This document shows positions 5,140 to 15,834 of a DNA stretch of 18,969 nucleotides, in pieces. The stretch's first letter is position 1. Each line of letters begins with the position of its first letter. The notes below the pieces were generated by a model. That model saw only the letters and a program-made list of their open reading frames with translations. It searched no databases and was not told the DNA's origin. The translations under genes and the position numbers were made by a program. This DNA comes from Chthoniobacteraceae bacterium (GTDB taxonomy: Bacteria > Verrucomicrobiota > Verrucomicrobiia > Chthoniobacterales > Chthoniobacteraceae), in contig JANNXQ010000096.1 of assembly GCA_031409655.1 (NCBI GenBank), forward strand, positions 1 to 18,969, read 5' to 3'.

Positions 5140-5220
<81 letters not shown>

Positions 5221-5260
5221 AAGCGGCTCGCAGACAACAGTTTGCGAGCCGTTTCTTTTT
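5221..5260 (+). terminator. Element-supplied intrinsic terminator for the tRNA
   Basis: AAGCGGCTCGCAGAC-AACA-GTTTGCGAGCCGTTT then CTTTTT. Confidence 0.8.
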
Positions 5261-5300
5261 GACCGTGGAAGTCGGTGAAATCCCTCTGAAATGGCGGTTT

Positions 5301-5345
5301 ATGCACCGAAATGCACCGAAATTTGCCGGGGTAGTTGCCGGGGTA
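5301..5345. repeat. Putative integrase arm-type sites (TTGCCGGGGTA x2) with adjacent ATGCACCGAA x2 tandem
   Basis: AAATTTGCCGGGGTAGTTGCCGGGGTA (5319-5345) is identical to 14269-14295 at the other end of the element. 10-bp tandem at 5301-5320. Confidence 0.75.
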
Positions 5346-5392
5346 AAATCTGACTTTTTCCAAGGGCACCACGAAGCGAAGGGCGGAAATCG

Positions 5393-5463
5393 AGGCACCC
5401 CGGCAAATCCACAGTTGCCGGGGTAGCCACTGGCGGCAGGCACCAGGGCGAAGGCGGGCCAGG
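5393..5463. repeat. ~70-bp imperfect direct repeat, copy A (contains CCCCGGCAA-N8-TTGCCGGGG palindrome)
   Basis: Similar to 6061-6137, including the downstream GGCACCA.GGCGAAGGCG. Confidence 0.8.
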
Positions 5464-5554
5464 GTAAGGCCGCTGCCGATCTCCGCTCGAATGGGCATCG
5501 GGGGTGCCATTCTTTTCGACCGATCACCAGCCGGCGAGGCCGATCAATGCTTGG

Positions 5555-5729
5555 TTTGTGGGCTTGTGGTGTTGTTGCCGGCTTCTCCGGTCGCGCCCGC
5601 TGACCTTCCTCCGTTCTGAACTCGTGCCCTTCCTCTCTCTTTCTTCCTTACGGAAAGAACACCACAAGCCCACAAATCTAGTGTTTAAGCGGGTCGGCGG
5701 CCTGGTGTTCGTCGTGGTCTTGTGGGCTT
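5555..5729. repeat. Iteron-like repeats, putative replication origin
   Basis: Perfect 19-bp inverted repeat TTTGTGGGCTTGTGGTGTT (5555-5573) / AACACCACAAGCCCACAAA (5658-5676), third partial copy at 5714-5729, pyrimidine tract between; downstream of the helicase-like gene. Confidence 0.6.
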
Positions 5730-6060
5730 TTGTCGGTGCAAAAGGGACATGAAGTGTCACGAACGAGGGGCAAAGGGGCAACCATGACAGGGCGAGGGGG
5801 CACGAACGGGACAAAGTGTCATGACATGGTGTCATCAACTTTTTGGAAGTGTCGCGTGCGAATAGGGTAAGCGACGCAGTAACTGATGGCGGGGCGTGTG
5901 CCCGAAAAGATTCCTTACCGGGGGGAGGGTAGGCGGCACTAGTCGTATTCCACGAGACGTGGTTTTGCTGGCGTTCGTTCCGGCGAACGCCGTCGAGGGG
6001 CGCGGGGAGCGCGGGCAAACTCGTGTTTGGCGGCTTCTCTGGCGCGAGCCAAGCTCGCAG

Positions 6061-6137
6061 AGGCAACCCCGGCAAATCCGCAGTTGCCGGGGTAGGCCGC
6101 TCGCGACGGCACCATGGCGAAGGCGAGGCGGCGCAGG
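6061..6137. repeat. ~70-bp imperfect direct repeat, copy B
   Basis: CCCCGGCAA (6067-6075) and TTGCCGGGGTA (6084-6094); just past the helicase-like gene stop. Confidence 0.8.
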
Positions 6138-6148
6138 CCGGCACGCTG

Positions 6149-7741
6149 CTACGCGGTCGCGTCGTCGAGGAAATGCACCACGTAGCGGCTTCCGCTGGCG
6201 GCGGCACGTCGGCCAAACTCGAAACGGCGTCCGCGCGTGTCGGTGAAGACGCGCCCGCGCAGCTTGCGCAGTTTGTGCCCAAGGGCTTTGCGTTCGTCGC
6301 GACACTCGAAAGGCAGCACGTCGTCGAGCGTCCCGGCTTCGCGCAGGGCATCGAGGATTTCGTCGGTCGTGAGTTCTTCGCCTTGCACGAGGGGGCCGGC
6401 GAGCTTGCACAGCGCGGTTTCGAGGGCGCGTCCGGCTTCGTCGCCACCCATCGGCCAATCGACAATCCGCGCGAAGGGATTGGCGAGGCCAGCGGCGACG
6501 CACACGCTGCCCACGAGGGCGGCGTAGGCTTCAAACGACGACAGGCGGGCGTCGCGGCAGTGCGGCATCCCACAGTCGCGCCAGTGGCGCAGCATCGCCC
6601 ACAGCGCGGCGCAGGCGTGGGCACGATAGGCGGCAGAGAAAAGGACGGTGTTCGTCATCGGGTCGGCAATCTCGCGTTCGCTGGCCTTTTCACCGGCACT
6701 CAGGAACACCACGAGGCTTCGCCGGGGCAGGTCTTCCGCGAGCTTTAGGTGGTTGCCGGTCGCGAACACTTGCCACGAGTTCGCGCACTTCACGCGCGTG
6801 CTTTGCCCCTTCACGCGCGGCGTGTGCGTGGGCGAGGAAATGAAATGGTTCAGGTCATTCGAGGCGAGGTTTTGCACGTCGTCGAGGAAGACGTAGGCCG
6901 CGCCCGCGAGCGCGGCGGCGTCGAGCACGTTGCGCAGTTCTTCGTCGGATTTCGGTTTGCTGTCTTCCTCCGTTTCGCCATGCGTCGGCGTGAGGATCGC
7001 GCGCACGAGCGTCGATTTCCCGACTCCAGGCTGATTGCCGATCACGAGCACGAGCGGGCGCACGGCACCGTGCGGCAGCAGATTCACGGCGAACACGCCG
7101 AGCATTGCAGCGGCGAACGCGGAGAAGCTGCGCCGGGTGAAAAGGTCGCCAGTTTCGGCGAAGGGGAAGCCGGCGAATCTTCCGTCGAGCCATGCGTGCG
7201 CGTCTTCCAAAGGCCAGTCGCGCGCGAAGTCGAGCACGGGCACGGTGAAGGTGCGCGTTGCGGGGTGGTAGCCTTCCGGCAGCAGGTCGAGCGTGCGGTC
7301 GGCATCTTCGCCGCGCCACGTCGGCAGGCGCAGCAGGTTCACGCCGCGCAGCTCGCGGACGTGGGCGCGGAGTTCGTCGCTGGCTAGGATGCACAGCGCG
7401 AGGTCTTGCCGGGCGTTCACGGTGCGGCGTTTGTCGCCTTCGCCATCGTGGAAGGTAAAGAATCGCTGGTGCCAACTGCGCCAGCGGGTCGGCGTCATCG
7501 GCTGCACTTCGCCGGTCGTGTCGTTCACGGTCACGAGAGATTCACCACGGCGGAAAAGCGGGGCGTTGCGCAGGCATTGCCCCACCGCGAGGCACAGGGC
7601 GGCAGTGGGCTGATTGATCGCGATGGACGGCAGGCTGCGCCCTTCACCGGGCGCAGGTGCGCCCGTGGCGGCGGCGAGTTGGGGCAGCTTCGCGCGGATT
7701 TCGTCGGCACCGTCGGCGGCGTGGTGGTCGTCGGTGTTCAT
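6149..7741 (-). CDS. P-loop NTPase, putative replicative helicase (SF3-like) with probable C-terminal winged helix
   Basis: Walker A GNQPGVGKST, Walker B YVFLDDV, sensor-like FATGN, RR finger (DLPRRSL). ATG at 7741 forms an ATGA overlap with the primase stop; 530 aa. Confidence 0.8.
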   Translation of the reverse strand: MNTDDHHAADGADEIRAKLPQLAAATGAPAPGEGRSLPSIAINQPTAALCLAVGQCLRNAPLFRRGESLVTVNDTTGEVQPMTPTRWRSWHQRFFTFHDGEGDKRRTVNARQDLALCILASDELRAHVRELRGVNLLRLPTWRGEDADRTLDLLPEGYHPATRTFTVPVLDFARDWPLEDAHAWLDGRFAGFPFAETGDLFTRRSFSAFAAAMLGVFAVNLLPHGAVRPLVLVIGNQPGVGKSTLVRAILTPTHGETEEDSKPKSDEELRNVLDAAALAGAAYVFLDDVQNLASNDLNHFISSPTHTPRVKGQSTRVKCANSWQVFATGNHLKLAEDLPRRSLVVFLSAGEKASEREIADPMTNTVLFSAAYRAHACAALWAMLRHWRDCGMPHCRDARLSSFEAYAALVGSVCVAAGLANPFARIVDWPMGGDEAGRALETALCKLAGPLVQGEELTTDEILDALREAGTLDDVLPFECRDERKALGHKLRKLRGRVFTDTRGRRFEFGRRAAASGSRYVVHFLDDATA

Positions 7742-8880
7742 CGGGGCGCGAGGTCGAGGATGGGCGCGGCTTTCGCGGCGGGGTTGAGCCACACGAGGCG
7801 TTGCGGGTAGGGCCGGTCGTAGTGTAGCAGGTAGCCGTCGCGGTCGCGTTTGCCGTGGCGCAGGCAGCCGGGTAGGCGCGAGAGGCGCACGGCGGAGAGT
7901 GCGCCACCGTCTGCGCCGAGCGGGCACACGATGGGCAGCAGGTCGTCGCGCACGGCATCCCATGCGGCTTTGCTCTCGGCGTTCACACGCACCAGGGCGT
8001 GAACGCTGCGCCCTCCGCTCGTGTAGGCCGCGACTATGGGAAAGGGCAGTTGCACGAGTGCGCGCAGCCACAGGTCGGCGGGGGCTTCGTCGCTTTCGAG
8101 CACGAGGTAAGGCCAGCTCGTAACGCACGCGGCGTGTCGCCGGCCAAGTTGCACGAGGCCGGCCGCATTTCGGTTGTTCGCGTTCGGCAGCCATGCGCCC
8201 GTCACGGGTTGCACGAGCCACCACACGCCTTCCGGCGCACCACTCGGCAGCGGCGACGGCACCGCGCGCACGCCGGGCACCGCGGCGAGCCGGTAGGCAC
8301 CGCGCGACGGCTCGAAAAGGAAGTCGCCTTGCGAGAAATTCCGCGTGAACACGAGCACCCGGTCGGCGGGCGCATAGAGCGCAGAGAGGAAGGCGGCAGC
8401 CGTGGCGACGCCTTGCTCGTGCTCCGCTGGCACCGGCACGGGCGAACGGTCGGCGAGCCAATCGAGCGTCACGACGACGGGGCACCGGGCGGCGAAGTCG
8501 GCGAGCCTGGGCGCGTCGTAGGGCGGGCGTTTCGGCGCACGCGGCGGCACTGGTGCCGCTGGCACGTCTGCGCCGAGCACGGGCGCGGCAACGGCACCGG
8601 TGCCGTTGCTCTCGGCAATGGCGATGCGGCGGCGCAGCTCGTGATTGAAGGCTGCCACGAGGTCGGCGCAGCTCGCGTGAACGCAATGCGCGGTCGGCAC
8701 ACCGTCGAGCTTCACCACGAAGTCACGCCGGCCATTGCGCCCCGTGTGCCGATCTTCACCAGGGCACTTCGCAAAGCCGTCACGATCGAGGGCGCAGCCT
8801 AGCAGTTCGTGCGCAATTTTGGATCTCAGCGCGAGGTCAACCACGGGGCGCGTCTCCCGTTCCTGCCAAGCGTTCGTCAA
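7738..8880 (-). CDS. Putative AEP-superfamily (RepB-like) DNA primase with N-terminal zinc finger
   Basis: CPGEDRH...HCVHASC Zn-binding motif; YLVLESDE, YTSGGRSVHALVRV and RLSRLPG match AEP motifs I-III. Start uncertain (TTG 8880 or GTG 8844). Confidence 0.78.
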   Translation of the reverse strand: MTNAWQERETRPVVDLALRSKIAHELLGCALDRDGFAKCPGEDRHTGRNGRRDFVVKLDGVPTAHCVHASCADLVAAFNHELRRRIAIAESNGTGAVAAPVLGADVPAAPVPPRAPKRPPYDAPRLADFAARCPVVVTLDWLADRSPVPVPAEHEQGVATAAAFLSALYAPADRVLVFTRNFSQGDFLFEPSRGAYRLAAVPGVRAVPSPLPSGAPEGVWWLVQPVTGAWLPNANNRNAAGLVQLGRRHAACVTSWPYLVLESDEAPADLWLRALVQLPFPIVAAYTSGGRSVHALVRVNAESKAAWDAVRDDLLPIVCPLGADGGALSAVRLSRLPGCLRHGKRDRDGYLLHYDRPYPQRLVWLNPAAKAAPILDLAPR

Positions 8881-9199
8881 TGAGCCGGATAGCTTCCATG
8901 AAGCATCGGCGAAGATGGTGAAGCAGGGCCACGCGGGCCTTGGCTACGGCTTCTTCGCGCGGCAGCAGGCGGGCGAGGTCGGCCAAGTAGCGGCGTGAGT
9001 TGTTGTCGAATTCGACGGCGAAGAAAAAGCGGGCGGCACCGCCCATTGTGTCTGTGCCGGCGGCATTGTCGGGGCTGCGAAAAATGGGAGAGAGCAAAGC
9101 GCAGAGTTGCCAGGCTGCCACCACGTCGGGCGGGTAAGGGTTGGCGGGCGCGGGCGGCAGGTCGTCGCCGGCATCGGCGGGAAAGAGGTCGTCTTTCAT
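8837..9199 (-). CDS. Hypothetical protein (120 aa)
   Basis: Fills the gap between the HTH and primase genes with tight spacing; ATG at 9199. Confidence 0.6.
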   Translation of the reverse strand: MKDDLFPADAGDDLPPAPANPYPPDVVAAWQLCALLSPIFRSPDNAAGTDTMGGAARFFFAVEFDNNSRRYLADLARLLPREEAVAKARVALLHHLRRCFMEAIRLIDERLAGTGDAPRG

Positions 9200-9203
9200 G
9201 GCC

Positions 9204-9437
9204 TTAGACGCGCGCTTTGATTGTGAACTGTTTCGCAATAGCCGCTGCACAGTCGCGGGGATTAAAGAACGTGCGCCTTCCGACCTTCACCACGGGAATC
9301 AATCGCTGGCGTTGCCATTGTCGCCACGTTCTGAGGCATGGTCGCGACGACGAATCAGGGAAGAGAATTTCGAGGGCGGCATCGGGGCCGACAAGGCCGG
9401 TGGGTGGGTTCGGTTCGGTGTTGGTAGGCAGTGACAT
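9204..9437 (-). CDS. Excisionase/AlpA-like MerR-type winged HTH protein
   Basis: 77 aa; LRTWRQWQRQRLIPVVKVGRRTFFNP resembles the excisionase 'IP..KVGR...F' wing; heads the replication operon. Confidence 0.8.
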   Translation of the reverse strand: MSLPTNTEPNPPTGLVGPDAALEILFPDSSSRPCLRTWRQWQRQRLIPVVKVGRRTFFNPRDCAAAIAKQFTIKARV

Positions 9438-9478
9438 GCACCTAGCTTCCCAAACGCCGGCAGCCACAGCGGCGGGGC

Positions 9479-9596
9479 GCAAAGCCGCACACCGTCACGC
9501 AATCGACGGCGCGCAACACGGGGCAAAATCTCCCCGGCGAGGCTGTGTCTGTCAGCGGTTCGCCGGCAAAGCCACGGCAGAAGGTCGCAAAGCCGC
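9479..9596. promoter_or_regulatory. GCAAAGCC(G/A)C direct repeats upstream of the xis-rep operon
   Basis: Copies at 9479-9488, 9566-9575 and 9587-9596. Confidence 0.5.
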
Positions 9597-9599
9597 GAC

Positions 9600-10367
9600 T
9601 TACTCGCCGCGAGGGTGTGCAAGCGGTTTTCTTCGCCTCACTGCACGTTTTTTCTCTTCGCCGCGCAGAAGATTCCCCTTCGTGCGTTTCATGTTTTCCC
9701 TCGCCAGTCGGTCACGCCAATAGGCGAATTCGCGATGGATGTGCGGGACGAAAAGGGAGTTGGGCCAATGGTCGGTTTCGACGCGGCGAAGGAATTTGTT
9801 CACGCGCTCGTCAGCGTCTTCAACCTCCCGGCACTCCATGCCTTTTTCAGTCGTCACGAATTCATGGCCTAGCCAGCCGAATAGGAAGGCACGAAAGAGT
9901 CCGGCACCGCGCAGCTTCACGCCGCGAACAACTACACCGTCGCGGCATTGGCTGTTGAGCAGGGCCATGAATCGCTTGTGCGGCATCGGGTATTTTTCCG
10001 CGTCAGGATCGAAGCCAATCAGCTTCACCAGGTCGGCGTGTTTGATTTCCTCCCGTTCCCGCCATTTGTCGTGTTCGGCGAGGTCGGCGCGTTCCTCTGC
10101 AAGAACCTGCGCGCACTCCCAAACGAGCCGCAATGCTTCGCCGGCACCTTCGCGCGTCTTGGGGAGGTTGAGCGTGCCGATCAAAGCCGCGAGTTCGGCG
10201 GGGGTCAGCTTCGGGCGATGCTCGACGGCGAGCCGAAAAAGCGGCGTGACGGGCAAGTGACGCGCCATCTTGCTTGAACCGTGGGTGAAGTATTCACGCG
10301 GCGGCAGTGGTTCGCTTTTTCCGCGCGTCGGTTTCGCCTTTTTCGTCTTGGGCTTCATCGGTTTCAT
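9600..10367 (-). CDS. Hypothetical protein (255 aa), basic termini
   Basis: Co-oriented ORF with protein-like composition; ATG 4 bp after the TGA of integrase-end copy R3; no family recognised. Confidence 0.7.
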   Translation of the reverse strand: MKPMKPKTKKAKPTRGKSEPLPPREYFTHGSSKMARHLPVTPLFRLAVEHRPKLTPAELAALIGTLNLPKTREGAGEALRLVWECAQVLAEERADLAEHDKWREREEIKHADLVKLIGFDPDAEKYPMPHKRFMALLNSQCRDGVVVRGVKLRGAGLFRAFLFGWLGHEFVTTEKGMECREVEDADERVNKFLRRVETDHWPNSLFVPHIHREFAYWRDRLARENMKRTKGNLLRGEEKKRAVRRRKPLAHPRGE

Positions 10368-10371
10368 GGGT

Positions 10372-10471
10372 TCACGCGGCAGTCATCCGCACCACTTTCG
10401 AGGCGTTATGCCGAACAGGTTGCACGATGTGCCGGAAGTCATTGCGCTTCGTCGGTGGTGGCGAGGGTGAG
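10372..10471 (-). repeat. R3: degenerate copy of the integrase 3' end
   Basis: Encodes ...DFRHIVQPVRHNASKVVRMTAA*. About 76 of 100 aligned columns match the integrase end (manual alignment), including an exact 23-bp block. Confidence 0.88.
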
Positions 10472-10478
10472 CCGCGCG

Positions 10479-11609
10479 TTATTTTTTTAAGGCCGCAAAT
10501 AACTTGGCAGCGAGATCTTGAGCTTTGACTCGCATTGATGGCGAGAGGACAGATTCCATCTGGGATAAGTTCGCTTTTGCGTGGGCGTTCCCGAGGGCCG
10601 TAGCGACGCTCGTCCATGCGTAAGCCTTGCGCGCGTTTTTGAGCACGCCTGCACCAGTCGCGTATCGCACGCCAAGATTATACTGAGCTTCGGCGTGTCC
10701 TTTTTCGGCGGCTTTCTTATACCACTCACATGCCTTGCGGGCGTCTTTTGGCACGCCCTCTCCCTTTGCATACATCACGCCGAGGTTGTTTTGGGCGTCG
10801 GTATGTCCTTGTTTAGCGGCTTTCTCGTACCACTCACAAGCCTTGCGCGCATCTTTGGGCACGCCATCTCCCGTTCCATAAATCGCACCGAGATAATATT
10901 GCGCTACGGCGTGGCCTTGTCCGGCGGCTTTCTCATACCATTGACATGCCTTGCGCACGTCTTTGGGGACGCCCTCCCCGGTCCCGTGCATTACACCAAG
11001 ATTATAGTGCGCCCCGGTATGTCCTTGGTTGGCGGCTTTCTGATACCACTCACATGCCTTGCGCGCGTCTTTGGGCACGCCAGTTCCCGTTCCATACATA
11101 AAGCCGAGGCTACACTGCGCGCGCGCGTCACCCTGTTCAGCAGCCTTAGTGTGCCACTCGTGGGCCTTGGCCTCGTGTTTGGGAACGCCCTCACCATTTG
11201 CGTATCGCACGCCGAGATAATATTGGGCAACGGCAAGTCCTTGTTCGGCGGCTTTCCCGTACCATTCACAAGCCTTGCGCGCGTCTTTTGGCACGCCTTC
11301 CCCCGTTTCATACATCACGCCGATATTATGCTGCGCCCCGCTGTGTCCTTGTTCTGCGGCTTTCTTATACCACTCACTGGCCTTTTGCGCGTCTTTTGGC
11401 ACGCCGTTTCCGTTCGCGTACCTGTGCCCCAAGATGAATTGCGCTAGGGCATACCCCTGGCATGCAGCTTTCTCATACCACTCGCATGCTTTCCGCGCGT
11501 TCTTGTGCACTCCCTCGCCATTCGCGTACATCAAGCCGAGGTCACACTGTGCGTGGGGATATCCGAGATTAGCGAACACCTTGGTAGCGATAAGCGCGTC
11601 AGCGAGCAT
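10479..11609 (-). CDS. Sel1-like repeat (SLR/TPR) protein, 9 repeats
   Basis: 36-aa repeats AQY.LG.MY..GEGVPKDARKACEWY.KAA.QG; 108-bp DNA periodicity; lower GC than its neighbours. Confidence 0.95.
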   Translation of the reverse strand: MLADALIATKVFANLGYPHAQCDLGLMYANGEGVHKNARKACEWYEKAACQGYALAQFILGHRYANGNGVPKDAQKASEWYKKAAEQGHSGAQHNIGVMYETGEGVPKDARKACEWYGKAAEQGLAVAQYYLGVRYANGEGVPKHEAKAHEWHTKAAEQGDARAQCSLGFMYGTGTGVPKDARKACEWYQKAANQGHTGAHYNLGVMHGTGEGVPKDVRKACQWYEKAAGQGHAVAQYYLGAIYGTGDGVPKDARKACEWYEKAAKQGHTDAQNNLGVMYAKGEGVPKDARKACEWYKKAAEKGHAEAQYNLGVRYATGAGVLKNARKAYAWTSVATALGNAHAKANLSQMESVLSPSMRVKAQDLAAKLFAALKK

Positions 11610-11667
11610 TGCAGTTTCCGCAAGGGATCAGTAGCGTTTGCCTGTTGCGCAGTTCACAGGAAGTTCC

Positions 11668-11906
11668 CGTACTCAATCCCCTTGGCTACGTCGGTGAAAT
11701 GGTTTCTCAGCTCGCGCACGATGGTTGTCTTTACTGTGGTACAAGCGTGTCTCACAAGGGCCGGGAGGTCAACGGCGTTCGCCCGGCCGCGTCGCGCGGT
11801 CATGCGCACCACTTTCGAGGCTTTGCCGGCACCGGGCGGCAGAATGCGCCAGAAGTCTTGCCCTTCGTCGGTGGTGGCGGGGTTGAGGTAGTGCCGGCGC
11901 AGCATG
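11668..11906 (-). repeat. R2: 239-bp copy of integrase 3' end + TA promoter + antitoxin 5' fragment
   Basis: Ungapped match to 12541-12779 (offset 873 bp), ~32 mismatches by manual count (~87%). Integrase stop TGA>CGA; antitoxin ATG>GTA. Confidence 0.93.
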
Positions 11907-11920
11907 GCGAGCGCGGGCCG

Positions 11921-12367
11921 CTACGGCTTCACCTTCAACCCGGCAGCCTTGGCGAGCTTGCGCTGGCGCGCGTCGAACGAGAGGAAGATTTTCGCGCCCG
12001 ATTCGAGAGCGAGCGCGACGTGCAAGAGGTCAATGGTGCGCTGGCCTTCCGTCGCCGCGTGCTTCTCGCTCAATTCGTCGGCGCGGCGGAAAACATCCGT
12101 CCACCCGGCAGGCGTGTGAACGAGCAAACCGTCGCGCAGGTCGTCGTCGATTCGATGGAAGGCCGCACGCCTTTCGCTATCGGAAATCTCACCGCGACCG
12201 GCAGCGTTGCGCAGGGCATTGCGTGCTTCGATGCGATGCAGCGGGGTGAACAGCAACGGCTCGGCGGTGCGGGCCATGTAGGCGGCAGCGTCCGCACTGC
12301 GGGTGTCATTGGAGACGAGAGAGACGAGAAAACTCGAATCCGGGTAGGAGTTCGTTTCCATCGCCAC
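11921..12367 (-). CDS. vapC: PIN-domain toxin, type II TA system
   Basis: YPDSSFLVSL, IEARNAL, RTIDLLHVALA and FLSFDARQ carry the PIN acidic residues; abuts the antitoxin stop. Confidence 0.92.
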   Translation of the reverse strand: MAMETNSYPDSSFLVSLVSNDTRSADAAAYMARTAEPLLFTPLHRIEARNALRNAAGRGEISDSERRAAFHRIDDDLRDGLLVHTPAGWTDVFRRADELSEKHAATEGQRTIDLLHVALALESGAKIFLSFDARQRKLAKAAGLKVKP

Positions 12368-12607
12368 TCAATCGCGCAAATCCGACCACAGCTTTTCCGT
12401 CGCGGCTTTCGACATGCCTTTGCCGACGGGCGGGAACGCTTTCAAGCGCGCTGCCCAATCCACCTTGCGCGGCTTGGTGGGCTTGGCCGGGGCGAGCGTG
12501 GCGAAGGCCGTGCCGTTGCGGGTGATGGTCACGGCTTCGCCGTGTTCAATCCACTTGGCTACGTCGGCGAAATGGTTTCTGAGGTCGCGCACGGTGGCTG
12601 TCTTCAT
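12368..12607 (-). CDS. Phd/YefM family antitoxin
   Basis: MKTATVRDLRNHFADV...GEAVTITRNG..FATLAP, 79 aa, directly upstream of the PIN toxin. Confidence 0.92.
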   Translation of the reverse strand: MKTATVRDLRNHFADVAKWIEHGEAVTITRNGTAFATLAPAKPTKPRKVDWAARLKAFPPVGKGMSKAATEKLWSDLRD

Positions 12608-12608
12608 G

Positions 12609-12645
12609 GTGATACAAAGGTGTCTCACGAAGGGCGAGAGGTCAA
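12609..12645 (-). promoter_or_regulatory. TA promoter/operator
   Basis: Minus strand TTGACC (-35) and palindrome GTGAGACA-CCTT-TGTATCAC immediately before the antitoxin ATG. Confidence 0.65.
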
Positions 12646-12664
12646 CGGCGTTTCCCCGGCAGCG

Positions 12665-14227
12665 TCACGCGGTCATCCGCACCACTTTCGAGGCTTTGCC
12701 GGCACCGGGCGGCAGGATGCGCCAGAAGTCTTCGGCTTCGTCGGTGTTCGTGAGGTTGAGGTAGTGCCGGCGCAGGATGCTTTCGGTGTTTCCACCTTCC
12801 AAGGCCGCGCGCTCGACGCTCTTTTCCGCACCAACGACGTAGGAGAAAAACGAGTGCCGCAACACGTCGTGTTCCAAGGCAAAGCGGGCGCGAATGTGCT
12901 TCGTCATGCGGTCGGCGTTCGTGGGCCAAATCTCGCCCTCGAATCGGGTCAACCACTGGTGCAAGGCGGGCCGGATGGTCGTCTGCCGATACTGGTGCGT
13001 TTTGCTGATTTCGGGTTGGACGTGGATAACGCCGCGCGCGAGGTCGAGCAGCTTCGCGCGTTCGGGGTGCCGGGCGAGTTTCAGCAGTTCGCCATCGGGG
13101 CCGCTGCGCAGGCCGGCGAAAAGCGCGAGGGCGAAATACTCGGCCATTGCCCCGCCTTCGTAGCTCGCGGCGTAGGCCATGAGTTCGCGAGCCTGCGCCA
13201 CCGTGAGAACGTGCGGCACGCCGCGCCCAAGTTTGAACTTCGCCACGGCAGAGGCGGGATTCTCGGCGCACCAGCGGCGTTGCTTGTCGGCGCACCAGCC
13301 GAGGAAGGTGTGAAGGTCGGCGCGGGCGTTGTTCCAGGTCTTGCGGGCCGCTGCGCTGCCATCCTTCGCGCGCAGGCCGCGCAGGAAGGCTTCCACGTCG
13401 CCCGTGCCGATCTCGTGAACGGCGGGCACCTTCGCGCCCTCGACGCTGGCGACGACGGCAGCAGCCAAGTCGCGGTCGGTGGGCTGGCGCAGGCTTTCGA
13501 TTGCGTCGCGGGCCGCTGCCACGGCATCGCGCAGGGCGGGGTCGAGCTTGCGGCGCAGCAGGCCGGGCACGTCGTCGGCATCTTCGGCAGCCTTGCGCCC
13601 GGCTTCGCGCAGGGCGGGGTCGAGCCGGCGCACGATCTCCGCGAGTGTCGCGGCGCGTTCGCTGCCGATCTCCGCGCGCACCCGGTCGATTTCCGGCCGC
13701 AAATCGGTCGGCAGCAGGCGCAGCGTGGCGAAGCCGATGAACTGCCCCAAAGTCGAGCGGAGTTGCACCAGCGAACGCGGGCGCACGCCTTCGCGCTCGC
13801 GGGCGTCGAGGAAAGCGTCGCGCGCGGCGTCGAGGGCCACGGGGTTGTCAGGCTGCGCGAAGGTGCGCAGGAAGTAGTCCACCGCTTCGCCGAGCGTGTA
13901 GCGTGCGCCGAGCCGGGTGAAGGCGGCTTCCGCTTCCTCGACGTGCGCCTTGGAAAGCCGGGTCACGACGTTGTGCAGGCTGGTGTCGGTGTTCGCCAGT
14001 TCGACGTTCTTCGTGGCAATGAAGGCTTCCGCTTCCTCGCGGGTCTTGAACCGCTTGCGCCCGTGCCGGCCATCGGCTTCGCGCCAGCCTTGCACGAGGA
14101 AGGTCGTCCACGAGTAGCCGTCTTTGCTTTCGATGATCTCGCGAAGGGTGAGGCTGCCGATGGGTTCACGAGCCGCGCGACGGGCGCGGCGCGGGGCGGT
14201 CTTGCGGGGAAGTGTGTTCGCTTTCAT
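12665..14227 (-). CDS. int: Tyrosine recombinase/integrase (520 aa)
   Basis: FAGLR, ISKT, DVLRHSF, GGNT and RRHY catalytic motifs; N-terminal arm-binding-like RKRFKTREEAEAF; adjacent to attR. Confidence 0.95.
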   Translation of the reverse strand: MKANTLPRKTAPRRARRAAREPIGSLTLREIIESKDGYSWTTFLVQGWREADGRHGRKRFKTREEAEAFIATKNVELANTDTSLHNVVTRLSKAHVEEAEAAFTRLGARYTLGEAVDYFLRTFAQPDNPVALDAARDAFLDAREREGVRPRSLVQLRSTLGQFIGFATLRLLPTDLRPEIDRVRAEIGSERAATLAEIVRRLDPALREAGRKAAEDADDVPGLLRRKLDPALRDAVAAARDAIESLRQPTDRDLAAAVVASVEGAKVPAVHEIGTGDVEAFLRGLRAKDGSAAARKTWNNARADLHTFLGWCADKQRRWCAENPASAVAKFKLGRGVPHVLTVAQARELMAYAASYEGGAMAEYFALALFAGLRSGPDGELLKLARHPERAKLLDLARGVIHVQPEISKTHQYRQTTIRPALHQWLTRFEGEIWPTNADRMTKHIRARFALEHDVLRHSFFSYVVGAEKSVERAALEGGNTESILRRHYLNLTNTDEAEDFWRILPPGAGKASKVVRMTA

Positions 14228-14268
14228 CTCCGTGCATTGTGCTTCCTCTCATCCGTGAGAACAAGCGA

Positions 14269-14295
14269 AAATTTGCCGGGGTAGTTGCCGGGGTA
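14269..14295. repeat. Putative integrase arm-type sites near attR
   Basis: 27 bp identical to 5319-5345. Confidence 0.75.
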
Positions 14296-14330
14296 TAGTA
14301 ACTTTATAGCAAGTAAGCCGATGGTCGTCC

Positions 14331-14381
14331 GGCTCATAACCTGAAGGTCGTAGGTTCAAATCCTACCCCCGCAACCACTTT
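14331..14381 (+). repeat. attR core (duplicated tRNA-Met 3' part)
   Basis: GGCTCATAACCTGAAGG...CCGCAACCACTTT identical to 5170-5220; lacks the tRNA 5' part. Confidence 0.95.
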
Positions 14382-14424
14382 GAGCTTCGTGCAGACTGTC
14401 GTGTGCACTTTTGCCATCGGAGTC

Positions 14425-15834
14425 TCAGCGGACCATTTTCACCGTGAAGGTCGTGGTGTTGTCCAATTCACTGACCACTTTGATACTCCCGCCGTGGGCT
14501 TGCACGATGGCCCGCGTGATCGCGAGGCCGAGGCCGCTGTGGCCGGGGGCGCGGGCTTTGTCGGCGCGGTGGAAGCGCTCGAAGATGTGAGGCAGATCCT
14601 CGGCGGGAATGCCGGGTCCGGTGTTGCTCACGGTGAATGTGGCGGCATCGTCGTCGCGCTTGGTGGTGATCCGGACTTCACCGCCTTCGTGGTTATAGTC
14701 GATGGCGTTGCTCAGTAGGTTGATGACCACTTGCGCTAGGCGCTCGTCGTCGCCTTGGCAGGGTGCGGGGGAAAGTTCGGCGTGGATTTCGATGCGGTGG
14801 CGGTCGGCGAGGGGTCGGATAAGGGAGATGCAGTCTGCGGCGATTTTGGAGAGATCACATTCGTCGCGCCGCATCTGCTCCTGGCCGGCGTCGAGGCGCG
14901 CGAGGGTGAGCAGGGAGTCGATGAGCTGGCGCATGTGTTGCGCAGCGCGCTGGCTGGCTTCGAAGGCTTCGCGGTGTTCTTCGTTCGGGCATTCGCTGGC
15001 GAGGGCGTTTTGCGAGTGCGTGAGGATCACGGAGACCGGCGTGCGAAGTTCGTGCGCGGCATCCGCCGTGAAGCGCGCCTGCTGGGCAAAGGCGGCGTCG
15101 AGTCGGGCGAAGGTCGAATTCAGCACGCTGGCGAGGCGGCCCAGCTCGCTATCGGTGTCGGCAGTGCTGATGCGCTGGGAGAGATCGCCCGCCGCGATCT
15201 TCGCCGCGGTGGCGCTGATCTGATCGATAGGTCGGATCGCCCGCGTGACCAGCCATCCGCCGCCCACCAGTCCCGCGGCCAGCACCACGCCGCCGACTCC
15301 GGCGAGCAACGCGGCGAGCGTGCGCAGATCGGCCTGGTCGGCGGCGATGGAGCGGCCCACGAGCACGCAATCCACCGGCGCGGCGAAGAGGAACGATTCG
15401 CGCAAATCGCCGCGCATCCGCACCGCGGGATTGCGCGCCTGCGGTTGCGGCAGATCGGCGGGTGCGTTCGCGGAAAGCCGGATCGGCTCTTTCCCCCGCA
15501 TCCAGACGGCAAAGTAATATCCCGCACCGTTGGCAAAGAGCGCGGACTGCTCGGGCGTAAGTCGCAGCTCAGAGAGTGGCGCGGGACTTGGTTGCCGCCC
15601 CGAGCCTGGCGGCGCCTGCGGCTCGCGCCGACCTCCAGTCGGGACCGGGCGCGGCGCAGTGCGCAGCGCGACGACCAGTGCCGAGAGTCGCTCCTGCAGT
15701 CCCTCGTCGATCCGCCGGAACTGCCGCGCTCTTTCCAAATGATACGCGGTAAGGCCAAACCCACTCAGCACGGCGACGAGCAGTGCGCCATACCAGAGTT
15801 GCAACCGCCAGCGGAGGGAACGCGGAAAAAACAT
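14425..15834 (-). CDS. Two-component sensor histidine kinase (HAMP-HisKA-HATPase)
   Basis: Two TM segments, FTADAAHELRTP H-box, NLLSNAIDY N-box, GLGLAI G-box. TGATG overlap with the regulator. Confidence 0.95.
   Translation of the reverse strand: MFFPRSLRWRLQLWYGALLVAVLSGFGLTAYHLERARQFRRIDEGLQERLSALVVALRTAPRPVPTGGRREPQAPPGSGRQPSPAPLSELRLTPEQSALFANGAGYYFAVWMRGKEPIRLSANAPADLPQPQARNPAVRMRGDLRESFLFAAPVDCVLVGRSIAADQADLRTLAALLAGVGGVVLAAGLVGGGWLVTRAIRPIDQISATAAKIAAGDLSQRISTADTDSELGRLASVLNSTFARLDAAFAQQARFTADAAHELRTPVSVILTHSQNALASECPNEEHREAFEASQRAAQHMRQLIDSLLTLARLDAGQEQMRRDECDLSKIAADCISLIRPLADRHRIEIHAELSPAPCQGDDERLAQVVINLLSNAIDYNHEGGEVRITTKRDDDAATFTVSNTGPGIPAEDLPHIFERFHRADKARAPGHSGLGLAITRAIVQAHGGSIKVVSELDNTTTFTVKMVR

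What the first reader, a model, noticed from the sequence alone, without database searches (positions are those of the whole stretch)
10372..12779. Polarised cargo array delimited by repeated copies of the integrase 3' end
Seen (minus strand): int[R1] - antitoxin - vapC - [R2] - antitoxin remnant - sel1 - [R3] - orphan. R1, R2 and R3 all encode the integrase tail ASKVVRMTA. They share an invariant 17-bp core CGCACCACTTTCGAGGC (12678, 11805, 10388; spacings 873 and 1417 bp) and a CTTCGTCGGTG block. Identity to int falls with distance (~87%, then ~76%). R3 keeps its TGA 4 bp before the orphan ATG, as if it were the ancestral int end. The copies start at or just after the catalytic-tyrosine codon region. 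Inference: cassettes are added sequentially by recombination within the integrase's own 3' end. Each event renews the C-terminus and pushes older ends downstream, giving an integron-like accretion system whose recombination site is the int gene itself. The repeats would also allow loop-out of 873- and 1417-bp circles.
Basis: partly seen in the sequence, partly recalled or inferred. Interest (0 to 1): 0.92.

Follow-up and report, generated by a model that had tools for sequence, protein, structure and literature searches.

The report
Displaced integrase tails stacking cargo genes
Behind the integrase gene of a small mobile island lie two dead copies of that gene's own end, each in front of a different imported gene block; they are recombination scars showing how cargo piles up next to an integrase, probably without a dedicated cassette machine.

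Summary
A 9.2-kb island sits in tRNA-Met (attL 5140-5216, attR 14325-14381). Its integrase (14227-12665, minus strand) is followed by vapBC, tail copy R2, an antitoxin stub plus a Sel1 gene, tail copy R3, then the island backbone.

Comparative data support accretion at the integrase 3' end:
- An independent lake-water contig carries a 96%-identical integrase that abuts the backbone gene directly. It lacks exactly the 2,290 bp between the R1 and R3 cores.
- The tail+vapBC unit recurs in four other Chthoniobacteraceae genomes in different contexts.
- One genome has tail-Sel1-tail-vapBC with no integrase at all.

An integron-like, Int-catalysed mechanism is not supported:
- The integrase's own att site and arm motifs lie at the island ends only.
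- The tails share no hairpin.
- Their 5' borders differ (-38 to -171 nt from the stop).
- 0 of 3 intact relatives carry extra tails.

The best reading is C-terminal displacement, as in Rhs, CDI and T6SS orphan arrays. Incoming tail+cargo DNA recombines through homology in the integrase 3' end and pushes the old tail downstream. This scan has noted the same scar behind housekeeping genes elsewhere. It is a new variant of a known kind, of moderate interest.

The parts
5140..5216 (+). tRNA-Met (CAT), the integration target; attL side of the island
   Evidence: ARAGORN. Its 3' 57 nt are repeated at 14325-14381.
14325..14381 (+). attR: 57-nt copy (98%) of the tRNA-Met 3' part, next to the int 5' end
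   Evidence: blastn. The same partial tRNA copy precedes int in L011-L014.
5323..6094 (.). Cluster of arm-type motif TTGCCGGGGTA (5323, 5335, 5396, 5415, 6065, 6084) at the attL side; two more copies at 14273 and 14285
   Evidence: 10 matches in the window against 0.17 expected; none lie between 6095 and 14272.
12665..14227 (-). Tyrosine integrase, 520 aa, catalytic Tyr489; intact
   Evidence: ORF. Weak SAM-like, XerC/D and phrog_1 hits. Alignment to a PF00589-positive homologue keeps R, K, HxxR and HY.
12665..12779 (-). R1: the live integrase tail (last 38 codons), with the 23-nt core at 12672-12694
12368..12628 (-). PhdYefM-like antitoxin, 86 aa
   Evidence: Pfam PF02604, E 5e-5, below the gathering score. 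78-80% identical homologues sit beside PIN genes in G148, G132 and G125.
11921..12367 (-). PIN-domain toxin (VapC), 148 aa. In four contexts the similarity ends at its stop codon.
   Evidence: Pfam PF01850, E 3.5e-11
11667..11906 (-). R2: orphan tail (from codon 485, stop lost) plus spacer plus the first ~27 codons of a second antitoxin gene
   Evidence: 87% to 12540-12779. Identity is 97% in the mid+core block and 83-85% in the flanks.
10479..11609 (-). Sel1-repeat protein, 376 aa, nine repeats with 108-nt periodicity. G+C is 56% against 61-73% in the neighbouring DNA.
   Evidence: Pfam PF08238, E 3e-105
10372..10471 (-). R3: oldest orphan tail (from about codon 490). It is frameshifted, its core is intact, and its TGA lies 4 nt before the orf255 ATG.
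   Evidence: The joint 10381|12672 in the X5 contig lies in this core.
9600..10367 (-). orf255, the first backbone gene; no known family
   Evidence: No Pfam, PHROG, NCBIfam or PADLOC hit. It directly follows int in the X5 contig.
6149..9482 (-). Backbone: orf92, orf137, primase-like orf380 and a DUF5906 helicase-like ORF
   Evidence: phrog_2597 DNA primase, E 1e-15; DUF5906, E 4e-5. An orf92 homologue and DnaG-type primase plus DUF5906 lie downstream of int in L027.

Best explanation
The region just 3' of the integrase is the cargo slot of a small tRNA-Met island. The island carries int, a primase and a helicase. The slot has grown by C-terminal (3'-end) displacement.

Proposed mechanism: DNA from a related element carries the last part of an int gene plus whatever cargo followed it. 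That DNA recombines with the resident element through homology in the int 3' region. There are two possible routes:
- a single crossover of a small circle (Campbell type);
- one homologous join plus one illegitimate join.
The live int then ends in the incoming tail and is followed by the incoming cargo. The old tail, with the old downstream genes, is pushed downstream, where it decays.

Proposed order of events here:
- First state: int-R3-orf255, the state still seen in the X5 contig.
- Then a tail+antitoxin(+vapC) unit was added (now R2). A Sel1 gene later cut into it by an illegitimate join.
- Last, the R1+vapBC unit was added.

The recombination is most likely host homologous recombination, not Int catalysis. 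Only short, diverged tails are seen because longer repeats would be lost again by the same recombination.

Shown: the repeats, the shared units, the empty form, the identity block around the core, and the lack of att, arm or hairpin features at the tails.
Inferred: the recombination pathway, the donors and the order of events.
For: 1. Repeats are real and non-random.
2. Empty form: run X5 is from another study. Its 6,077-nt contig is colinear with 8807-10381 and 12672-14360. It skips 2,290 bp, and 23 nt fit both sides of the joint. Its int part has 72 differences in 1,689 nt.
3. The tail+vapBC unit occurs in several contexts:
- behind an intact int in G148 (79% over 2.5 kb);
- as a decayed orphan in G013;
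- as a 783-bp unit, 95% identical between G132 and G125, with unrelated flanks on both sides.
In all four contexts similarity ends at the vapC stop.
4. G132 has tail-Sel1-tail-vapBC beside hicB with no int. G057 has an orphan tail in front of a SIR2/TPR gene.
5. R1 vs R2 is 63/65 identical in the mid+core block against 147/175 in the flanks (Fisher p 0.007). R1 vs R3 is 22/22 in the core against 50/68 upstream (p 0.005). This is the footprint of a crossover or conversion in the longest identical stretch.
6. G013's int is 89-96% identical to the window int up to 12724, then 63% over the last stretch, and it is followed by other cargo. So the last codons travel with the cargo.
7. No internal att copy, no arm motif and no shared hairpin at the tails.
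8. [quoted passage not shown]
Against: - No recombination product (circle or deletion joint) was seen in the source-related runs X1, X3 and X4. These are k=31 contigs, which drop rare variants.
- The X5 form could equally be a deletion between R1 and R3, so it does not fix the direction of events.
- The 5' ends of the seven distinct orphan-tail copies I measured lie 38-171 nt before the stop of a 1,563-nt gene, and they start 7-40 nt after the preceding gene's stop. That is tidier than random illegitimate joins predict. My explanation, that long repeats are lost, is an inference.
- The core resembles the tRNA-Met 3' end plus flank at attR (score 24; 4 of 500 shuffles reach it; four comparisons made). 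This leaves room for Int acting on a pseudo-site.
- int and vapBC have diverged roughly in step between the window and G148. So the R1+vapBC link may be old rather than the newest event.
- In G013 the orphan unit lies upstream of int, against a strict polarity.
Confidence: 0.6

Rival explanations
1. One reading: an integron-like platform. Int itself recombines a site in its own 3' end (the 17-23-nt core) with circular cassettes. Each event renews the C-terminus and stacks older ends downstream.
For: - Polarised stack behind int.
- The core is kept intact in R3 while the rest has decayed: 22/22 vs 50/68.
- Three independent similarity breaks fall within about 10 nt of the core's 5' edge: G013 int vs window at 12702, the left border of the G132/G125 unit at 12703, and the X5 joint inside the core.
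- The core resembles the tRNA-Met 3' end at attR (4 of 500 shuffles reach the score).
- Units are compact and appear in a different order in G132.
Against: - The Int's att is the tRNA-Met 3' half. Arm motifs occur only at the island ends, with 0 hits in the array. An arm-dependent integrase is not expected to recombine two arm-less sites; this rests on established knowledge of lambda-type integrases.
- Tail 5' borders differ (-38, -62, -78, -93, -96, -114, -171).
- vapBC is followed by a tail only in the window, in 1 of 5 contexts.
- There is no shared fold: z is +0.5 for R1, +0.3 for R2 and -2.1 for R3 only.
- 0 of 3 intact relatives have extra tails.
- Arrays exist in G132, G125 and G130, which have no int match at E 1e-20.
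- Breaks near the core are also what homologous exchange gives at the edge between conserved int and variable cargo.
Confidence: 0.12
2. Graveyard of tandem islands. Three related elements integrated one after another at tRNA-Met. Later deletions removed the internal att sites, two backbones and most of two int genes, leaving only tails.
For: - Elements of this family do decay at tRNA-Met. G054 keeps only int codons 1-104 beside the tRNA. G013 has a frameshifted int, an orphan tail unit upstream of it, and a second, unrelated integrase fragment downstream.
- Single orphan tails next to chromosomal genes (G057) need nothing more than one deletion.
Against: - No internal tRNA fragment or arm motif is left.
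- Each deletion would have to run from just after a cargo stop codon to the last 40-170 nt of the next int, and this would have to happen repeatedly: R2, R3 and T2 of G132. For random endpoints in a 1,563-nt gene, three tails all within the last 171 nt has p about 0.001, before allowing for how they were found.
- The backbone-proximal tail (R3) is the most decayed, while the int far from its backbone is intact.
Confidence: 0.2
3. Assembly artefact: the R1/R2 join is a wrong path through a 38-nt repeat in a short-read metagenome assembly.
For: Logan k=31 unitigs of X1, X3 and X4 all break at the shared 38-mer, so none bridges it. The window is a MAG contig.
Against: - int-tail-antitoxin-vapC is colinear with an independent MAG.
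- Depths of all pieces in X1 are similar (10-19).
- The only other path would make vapBC an 873-bp circle.
- R3 and its flanks are bridged by one unitig.
- Tail stacks recur in G132.
Confidence: 0.03

Closest known systems
C-terminal displacement and orphan arrays of rhs (also cdiA-CT/cdiI) loci. Jackson et al. 2009, PMC2935791; I read passages only.
   Same: A full-length gene is followed by cut-off copies of its own 3' end, each in front of different downstream genes. The same tips are found attached and detached in different genomes. The proposed mechanism is homologous recombination of a tip plus core fragment, possibly via a circle, with no dedicated integrase.
   Different: The anchor gene here is the integrase of a mobile island, not a polymorphic toxin. 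The displaced part is only the last 12-57 codons after the catalytic Tyr. The cargo is vapBC, Sel1 and defence-type genes, not toxin tips with immunity genes. The whole stack is itself portable between tRNA-Met sites.
Sequential displacement arrays in Vibrio cholerae T6SS clusters. Kirchberger et al. 2017, PMC5361080; I read passages only.
   Same: New modules are added behind a conserved anchor and older genes are shifted downstream. The authors propose homology-facilitated illegitimate recombination, and note that the likeness to integrons comes without evidence for an integrase.
   Different: In those arrays what is retained is immunity genes under selection. Here the retained pieces are non-functional int tails and a mix of cargo.
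Mobile and chromosomal integrons (IntI, attI, attC cassettes); features from established knowledge
   Same: A tyrosine recombinase sits next to a polarised stack of compact, promoter-poor gene units separated by a repeated element.
   Different: The stack lies 3' of int, not 5' at an attI. The repeats are gene fragments without an attC-like fold. There is no IntI-type hit. The integrase has its own tRNA att site.
Defence hotspot between int and psu of P4-like satellites. PMC9122126 and PMC13586616; I read passages only.
   Same: The architecture matches: att, int 5' end, int 3' end, a variable cargo slot, then replication genes. Cargo in relatives is defence-type: a PD-T4-6-like kinase, type I R-M and SIR2. 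In three E. coli P4-type ints compared pairwise, similarity also collapses about 60-120 nt before the int stop.
   Different: The int is not a P4-family integrase: BLASTP E is 4.5. No psu, delta or sid-like genes were found. In E. coli the P4 tail was single-copy in 39 of 39 genomes that hold it, so there are no orphan tails there.
Tandem accretion of islands at one tRNA or tmRNA gene (ICE/CIME accretion; Dehalococcoides ssrA islands, PMC3146451; I saw only the search listing and the abstract start)
   Same: Repeated copies of a gene's 3' end delimit successive blocks of imported genes.
   Different: In those cases the repeated piece is the att target (tRNA or ssrA), regenerated by site-specific integration. 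Here the repeated piece is the integrase gene itself, and no att copy separates the blocks.

Membership tests
Integron | IntI-type integrase | tested here: not met
   Pfam and NCBIfam give only weak SAM-like and XerC/D N-terminal hits and no integron integrase model.
Integron | Cassettes bounded by attC sites that fold as imperfect hairpins | tested here: not met
   DNA folds of both strands: R1 z +0.5 and -0.3, R2 +0.3 and -0.6, R3 -2.1 and -2.1. No shared structure.
Integron | Array starts at an attI site upstream (5') of the integrase gene | tested here: not met
   The array lies 3' of int. The 5' side holds attR and the arm repeats.
C-terminal displacement / orphan array | Intact gene followed by 3' fragments of itself, each preceding different genes | tested here: met
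   R1 is in int. R2 and R3 are orphans in front of the antitoxin stub plus Sel1 and in front of orf255.
C-terminal displacement / orphan array | The same tip+cargo unit is found attached to a full gene in some genomes and detached in others | tested here: met
   Tail+vapBC is attached in G148 and detached in G013, G132 and G125.
C-terminal displacement / orphan array | Relatives without the orphans, with the break in the shared 3' segment | tested here: met
   X5 contig joint 10381|12672, with 23 nt shared. L025-L027 have no extra tails.
C-terminal displacement / orphan array | Driven by host homologous recombination, no dedicated recombinase | not testable with these tools
   Indirect evidence only: the identity block and arrays in genomes without the int.
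tRNA-integrating tyrosine-recombinase island | Direct repeat of the tRNA 3' part at both ends | tested here: met
   57 nt, 98% identical, 5163-5219 vs 14325-14381.
tRNA-integrating tyrosine-recombinase island | Tyrosine recombinase catalytic residues | tested here: met
   There is no direct PF00589 hit. However, alignment A3 to the G053 homologue (PF00589, E 2e-11) keeps Arg, Lys, HxxR-type Arg-His and His-Tyr489. The AlphaFold model was too poor to use (pLDDT 43).
P4-like satellite | P4-family int and psu/delta/sid, alpA and alpha core genes | tested here: not met
   Int vs P4 Int gives E 4.5. PHROGs find only an integrase, a primase and two unnamed families.
Tandem island accretion (ICE/CIME type) | Internal att copies between the accreted units | tested here: not met
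   Only one extra tRNA fragment in the window, at attR. There are no arm motifs between 6095 and 14272.
Type II VapBC toxin-antitoxin | PIN toxin preceded by a small antitoxin gene | tested here: met
   PIN, E 3.5e-11, above the cutoff. PhdYefM, E 5e-5, below the cutoff (23.4 vs 29.8 bits). The genes abut: antitoxin 12368-12628, vapC 11921-12367.

The most novel reading that the evidence does not exclude
The 23-nt core in the integrase tail is a working secondary recombination site. It resembles the tRNA-Met 3' end that this integrase family targets. Int, or Int with a host factor, would use it to capture and release small arm-less circles made of tail plus cargo. That would be a cassette platform built into a mobile island's own integrase gene, and it would explain the tidy unit borders and the intact core in the otherwise decayed R3.
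Probability: 0.1. Interest if true: 0.85.

Novelty: new variant of a known kind. Interest (0 to 1): 0.45.

Why it matters
Cargo and defence genes cluster next to integrase genes in satellites, islands and prophages. How they get there is still open: the P4/P2 hotspot paper says that recombination pathways remain to be validated (PMC9122126, passage).

This locus keeps the scars of the process: old integrase tails left behind each time a new tail+cargo block came in. It shows three things:
- The last codons after the catalytic tyrosine are exchanged together with the cargo.
- The exchange can be additive, so a stack builds up.
- The stack then travels with the element.

A quick look at three E. 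coli P4-type integrases shows the same collapse of similarity just before the stop. The principle may therefore be general, even where no orphan tails are kept.

If Int itself turned out to catalyse the events, it would be a new cassette system. On present evidence it is a portable case of a known recombination scar.

Tried and rejected
- Structure prediction of Int from the 4-sequence alignment gave pLDDT 43, so I did not use it and ran no fold search.
- A PDB sequence search with the Int profile gave 0 hits.
- A Pfam scan of the C-terminal domain alone, at E up to 5, gave 0 hits.
- The metagenome-contig scan gave 5 distant loci (24-50% identity), none with useful flanks, so I did not analyse them further.
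- Core pattern with 1-2 mismatches: I fetched all 7 genomes whose match had 1-2 mismatches (G107, G111, G121, G126, G131, G010, G014). None matched beyond the roughly 23-nt pattern: five gave only 23-24 matching nt and two gave no hit. I dropped them as chance or unrelated.
- Outside the family the core pattern was not found: 0 of 330 genomes of other families in the order sample.
- X1, X3 and X4 showed no joint at the tails. Because they are k=31 contigs, this says nothing about rare circles or deletions.
- A dif/Xer-like reading of GGTGCGCATGA in R2 was considered and dropped. I saw no second Xer arm when reading the sequence, and the dif consensus was recalled, not taken from a tool.
- A promoter-retention explanation for the tails was dropped. 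The TTGACC box and the palindromic operator of the antitoxin lie after the int stop, not in the tail (sequence read).
- Literature: 4 searches found no description of orphan integrase tails delimiting cargo. One further search failed on a term limit. This is not an exhaustive search.

Full report
**What is there.**
The window is one whole contig of a 6.85-Mb Verrucomicrobia MAG. Its close relatives are labelled Chthoniobacteraceae or Chthoniobacterales.

A tRNA-Met gene lies at 5140-5216. The last 57 nt of its sequence recur at 14325-14381 at 98% identity. So 5163-14381 is a 9.2-kb integrated element.

An 11-nt motif, TTGCCGGGGTA, occurs 10 times against 0.17 expected by chance. All copies lie within about 900 nt of the two ends. 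This is the pattern of integrase arm sites.

All element genes are on the minus strand:
- a 520-aa integrase (14227-12665)
- a PhdYefM-like antitoxin
- a PIN toxin
- a Sel1-repeat gene
- a 255-aa ORF of no known family
- small ORFs
- a primase-like ORF
- a DUF5906 helicase-like ORF

The integrase is very divergent. It has no direct PF00589 hit, no PDB sequence match, and an unusable AlphaFold model. It does align with a family homologue that matches PF00589 at E 2e-11. That alignment keeps the catalytic Arg, Lys, Arg-His and His-Tyr, and places the tyrosine at residue 489.

- The 17-mer is present three times, with 0 of 200 shuffles reaching three.
- R2 is part of a 240-nt copy at 87%. It covers the int tail from codon 485, the spacer, and the first ~27 codons of the antitoxin.
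- R3 is a roughly 100-nt copy at 73-76%. It has a 1-nt insertion, an extra Ala codon, and a TGA 4 nt before the orf255 ATG.
- R2 has lost its stop codon.
- Nothing else in the genome resembles the unit.

**Relatives.**
A genome-collection scan and a family-wide search (151 genomes) found intact close integrases in three other genomes: G148, G150 and G067. They also found a contig-truncated one (G097), a frameshifted one (G013) and two N-terminal stubs (G054, G061).

None of the three intact relatives has a second copy of its own tail within the fetched 17-20 kb (0 of 3). What follows int differs in each:
- vapBC in G148, colinear with the window from attR to the vapC stop at 79%
- an antitoxin stub and type I R-M genes in G150
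- the backbone almost directly in G067
- a PD-T4-6-like kinase in G013

So the int 3' flank is a variable cargo slot.

**Orphan tails elsewhere.**
Searches with the tail peptide and with a 23-nt core pattern found further orphan tails, and only within this family. With 0 mismatches the pattern hit G000 three times, G013, G125 and G130 once each, and G132 twice. The reversed-pattern control gave 1 hit in 151 genomes, and 0 of 330 genomes of other families in the order sample matched.
- G132 has, beside hicB and housekeeping genes and with no integrase: tail, Sel1 gene, short tail, antitoxin, vapC.
- G125 has the same 783-bp short-tail+vapBC unit at 95% identity, with unrelated DNA on both sides.
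- G130 has a tail followed by what reads like a transposase start at a contig end (my reading of the translation, not a database hit).
- G057 has a tail without the conserved core, in front of a SIR2/TPR gene.
- G013 has a 57-codon tail plus a decayed vapBC, upstream of its broken int.

In four contexts the similarity of the vapBC unit ends at the vapC stop.

**The empty form.**
I laid public contigs on 8800-14500. A lake-water run from another study (X5) holds a 6,077-nt contig that follows the window through the backbone. The backbone similarity is patchy: for example 60 differences in 356 nt of orf255. The contig runs up to 10381 and then continues at 12672 through the whole int to attR, with 72 differences in 1,689 nt. 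The joint skips 2,290 bp, and 23 nt (the core) fit both sides.

A closely related int therefore sits directly against orf255, exactly as R3 does. The same structure would also arise by deletion between R1 and R3, so the direction of events is not proven.

**Mechanism.**
Several results speak against catalysis by the element's own integrase at its own gene:
- Its att site and arm motifs are elsewhere, and none lies in the array.
- R1 and R2 fold no better than shuffled sequence; only R3 does, weakly.
- The 5' borders of the tails differ: -38, -62, -78, -93, -96, -114 and -171 nt from the stop.
- A tail follows vapBC in only one of five contexts.
- The left border of the Sel1 block is a break inside an antitoxin gene.
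- Stacks persist in genomes that have no close int.

Several results speak for homology-driven exchange:
- R1 and R2 are 97% identical (63/65) in a central block and 83-85% identical in both flanks (p 0.007).
- R3 keeps 22/22 in the core against 50/68 upstream (p 0.005).
- The longest identical runs are 38 nt (R1/R2) and 23 nt (R1/R3).
- G013's int is about 92% identical to the window's up to 37 nt before the stop. It then switches to a different tail allele and different cargo.

This is the pattern described for rhs C-terminal displacement and for T6SS effector-immunity arrays. For those, homologous recombination via a circle, or homology-facilitated illegitimate recombination, has been proposed (PMC2935791 and PMC5361080, passages).

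Earlier notes of this scan report the same kind of stack behind ubiD, ubiG, dnaK, ychF and gltX in other genomes, without any integrase. I did not check those notes, but they fit a general, integrase-independent process.

**What stays open.**
- The tidy unit borders and the clustering of all tail starts in the last 171 nt are only explained by an inference: longer repeats are unstable and are lost.
- The core resembles the tRNA-Met 3' end and its flank at attR. Only 4 of 500 shuffles reach the score, with four comparisons made.
- Three independent similarity breaks fall at or next to the core.

These points keep the Int-catalysed reading alive at about one in ten. A tandem-island graveyard is the other rival. 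Decay at this tRNA is real (G054, G013), but no internal att remnant exists and the required deletions would be oddly regular.

**Comparison with P4-like satellites.**
P4 has the same layout: attP, int 5' end, int 3' end, cargo. The published hotspot lies between int and psu. The window's int is not a P4-family protein.

In complete E. coli genomes, a mid-gene 150-nt piece of P4 int is found in 533 genomes, but the last 150 nt in only 39. It is always single-copy. In three pairwise comparisons of P4-type ints at tRNA-Leu with different downstream genes, identity drops from 79-98% to 53-65% in the last 60-120 nt of the gene. So exchange of the int tail together with the cargo may be common, and retention of the old tail rare.

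**Verdict.**
The accretion reading is partly supported; the integron-like mechanism is not. This is a new variant of a known kind of recombination scar. Its interest is that the docking gene is a mobile element's integrase, which makes the cargo stack portable and offers a trace of how int-adjacent hotspots fill.

Noticed in passing
L043 (phage P4), L046, L047; E. coli genome collection: The last 150 nt of P4 int match 39 of 5,426 E. coli genomes, while a mid-gene 150 nt matches 533. In three pairwise comparisons of P4-type ints with different downstream genes, identity collapses in the last 60-120 nt before the stop. The int tail seems to be exchanged with the hotspot cargo.
   Followed up: partly
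window 11654-11905 (-): R2 has lost the int stop codon. This gives an 83-aa ORF with an ATG start that fuses the int tail, the spacer and the antitoxin N-terminus in one frame. I did not test whether it is expressed.
   Followed up: no
window 5203-5213 and 14364-14374: The arm-type motif TTGCCGGGGTA differs by one base from the tRNA-Met acceptor/T-stem 3' end read on the minus strand (TTGCGGGGGTA). Arm and core sites of this integrase may therefore share a recognition sequence.
   Followed up: no
L031 1-266 (G125:C360) and G125:C307: In G125 the short-tail+vapBC unit is preceded by a piece of a multi-copy repeat, present at 6-7 places per genome in G125, G130 and G132. Its translation reads like an Rhs/YD-type repeat (my recollection, not tested).
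   Followed up: partly
L016 (G054), 7870-10271: A decayed relative. attR and int codons 1-104 are joined to a 43-nt piece matching window 6065-6107, just before tRNA-Met. This internal deletion keeps the int head instead of the tail.
   Followed up: partly
L015 10971-11687 (G013): A 238-aa ORF holds the C-terminal part of a different tyrosine integrase (PF00589, E 2e-6; 29% to the window int). It lies downstream of the kinase cargo and before tRNA-Met. It may be another displaced or decayed int end.
   Followed up: partly
window 10454 (runs X1 and X4): One contig in each of X1 and X4 matches the window from 10454 upward (the 5' part of R3) but continues with unrelated sequence below it. Depth in that bin is raised. 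This is probably another int-tail-bearing element in the same community (tables 2 and 7).
   Followed up: no
window 10624-11571: The Sel1 gene is built of 108-nt units (7 copies, 69-75% alike). Its G+C is 56%, against 61-73% in the neighbouring island DNA, which fits a foreign origin.
   Followed up: no
window 6149-8880 (-): The primase-like ORF (7738-8880) and the long ORF holding the DUF5906 domain (6149-8686) overlap by about 950 nt in different frames. The true start of the helicase-like gene is therefore uncertain.
   Followed up: no
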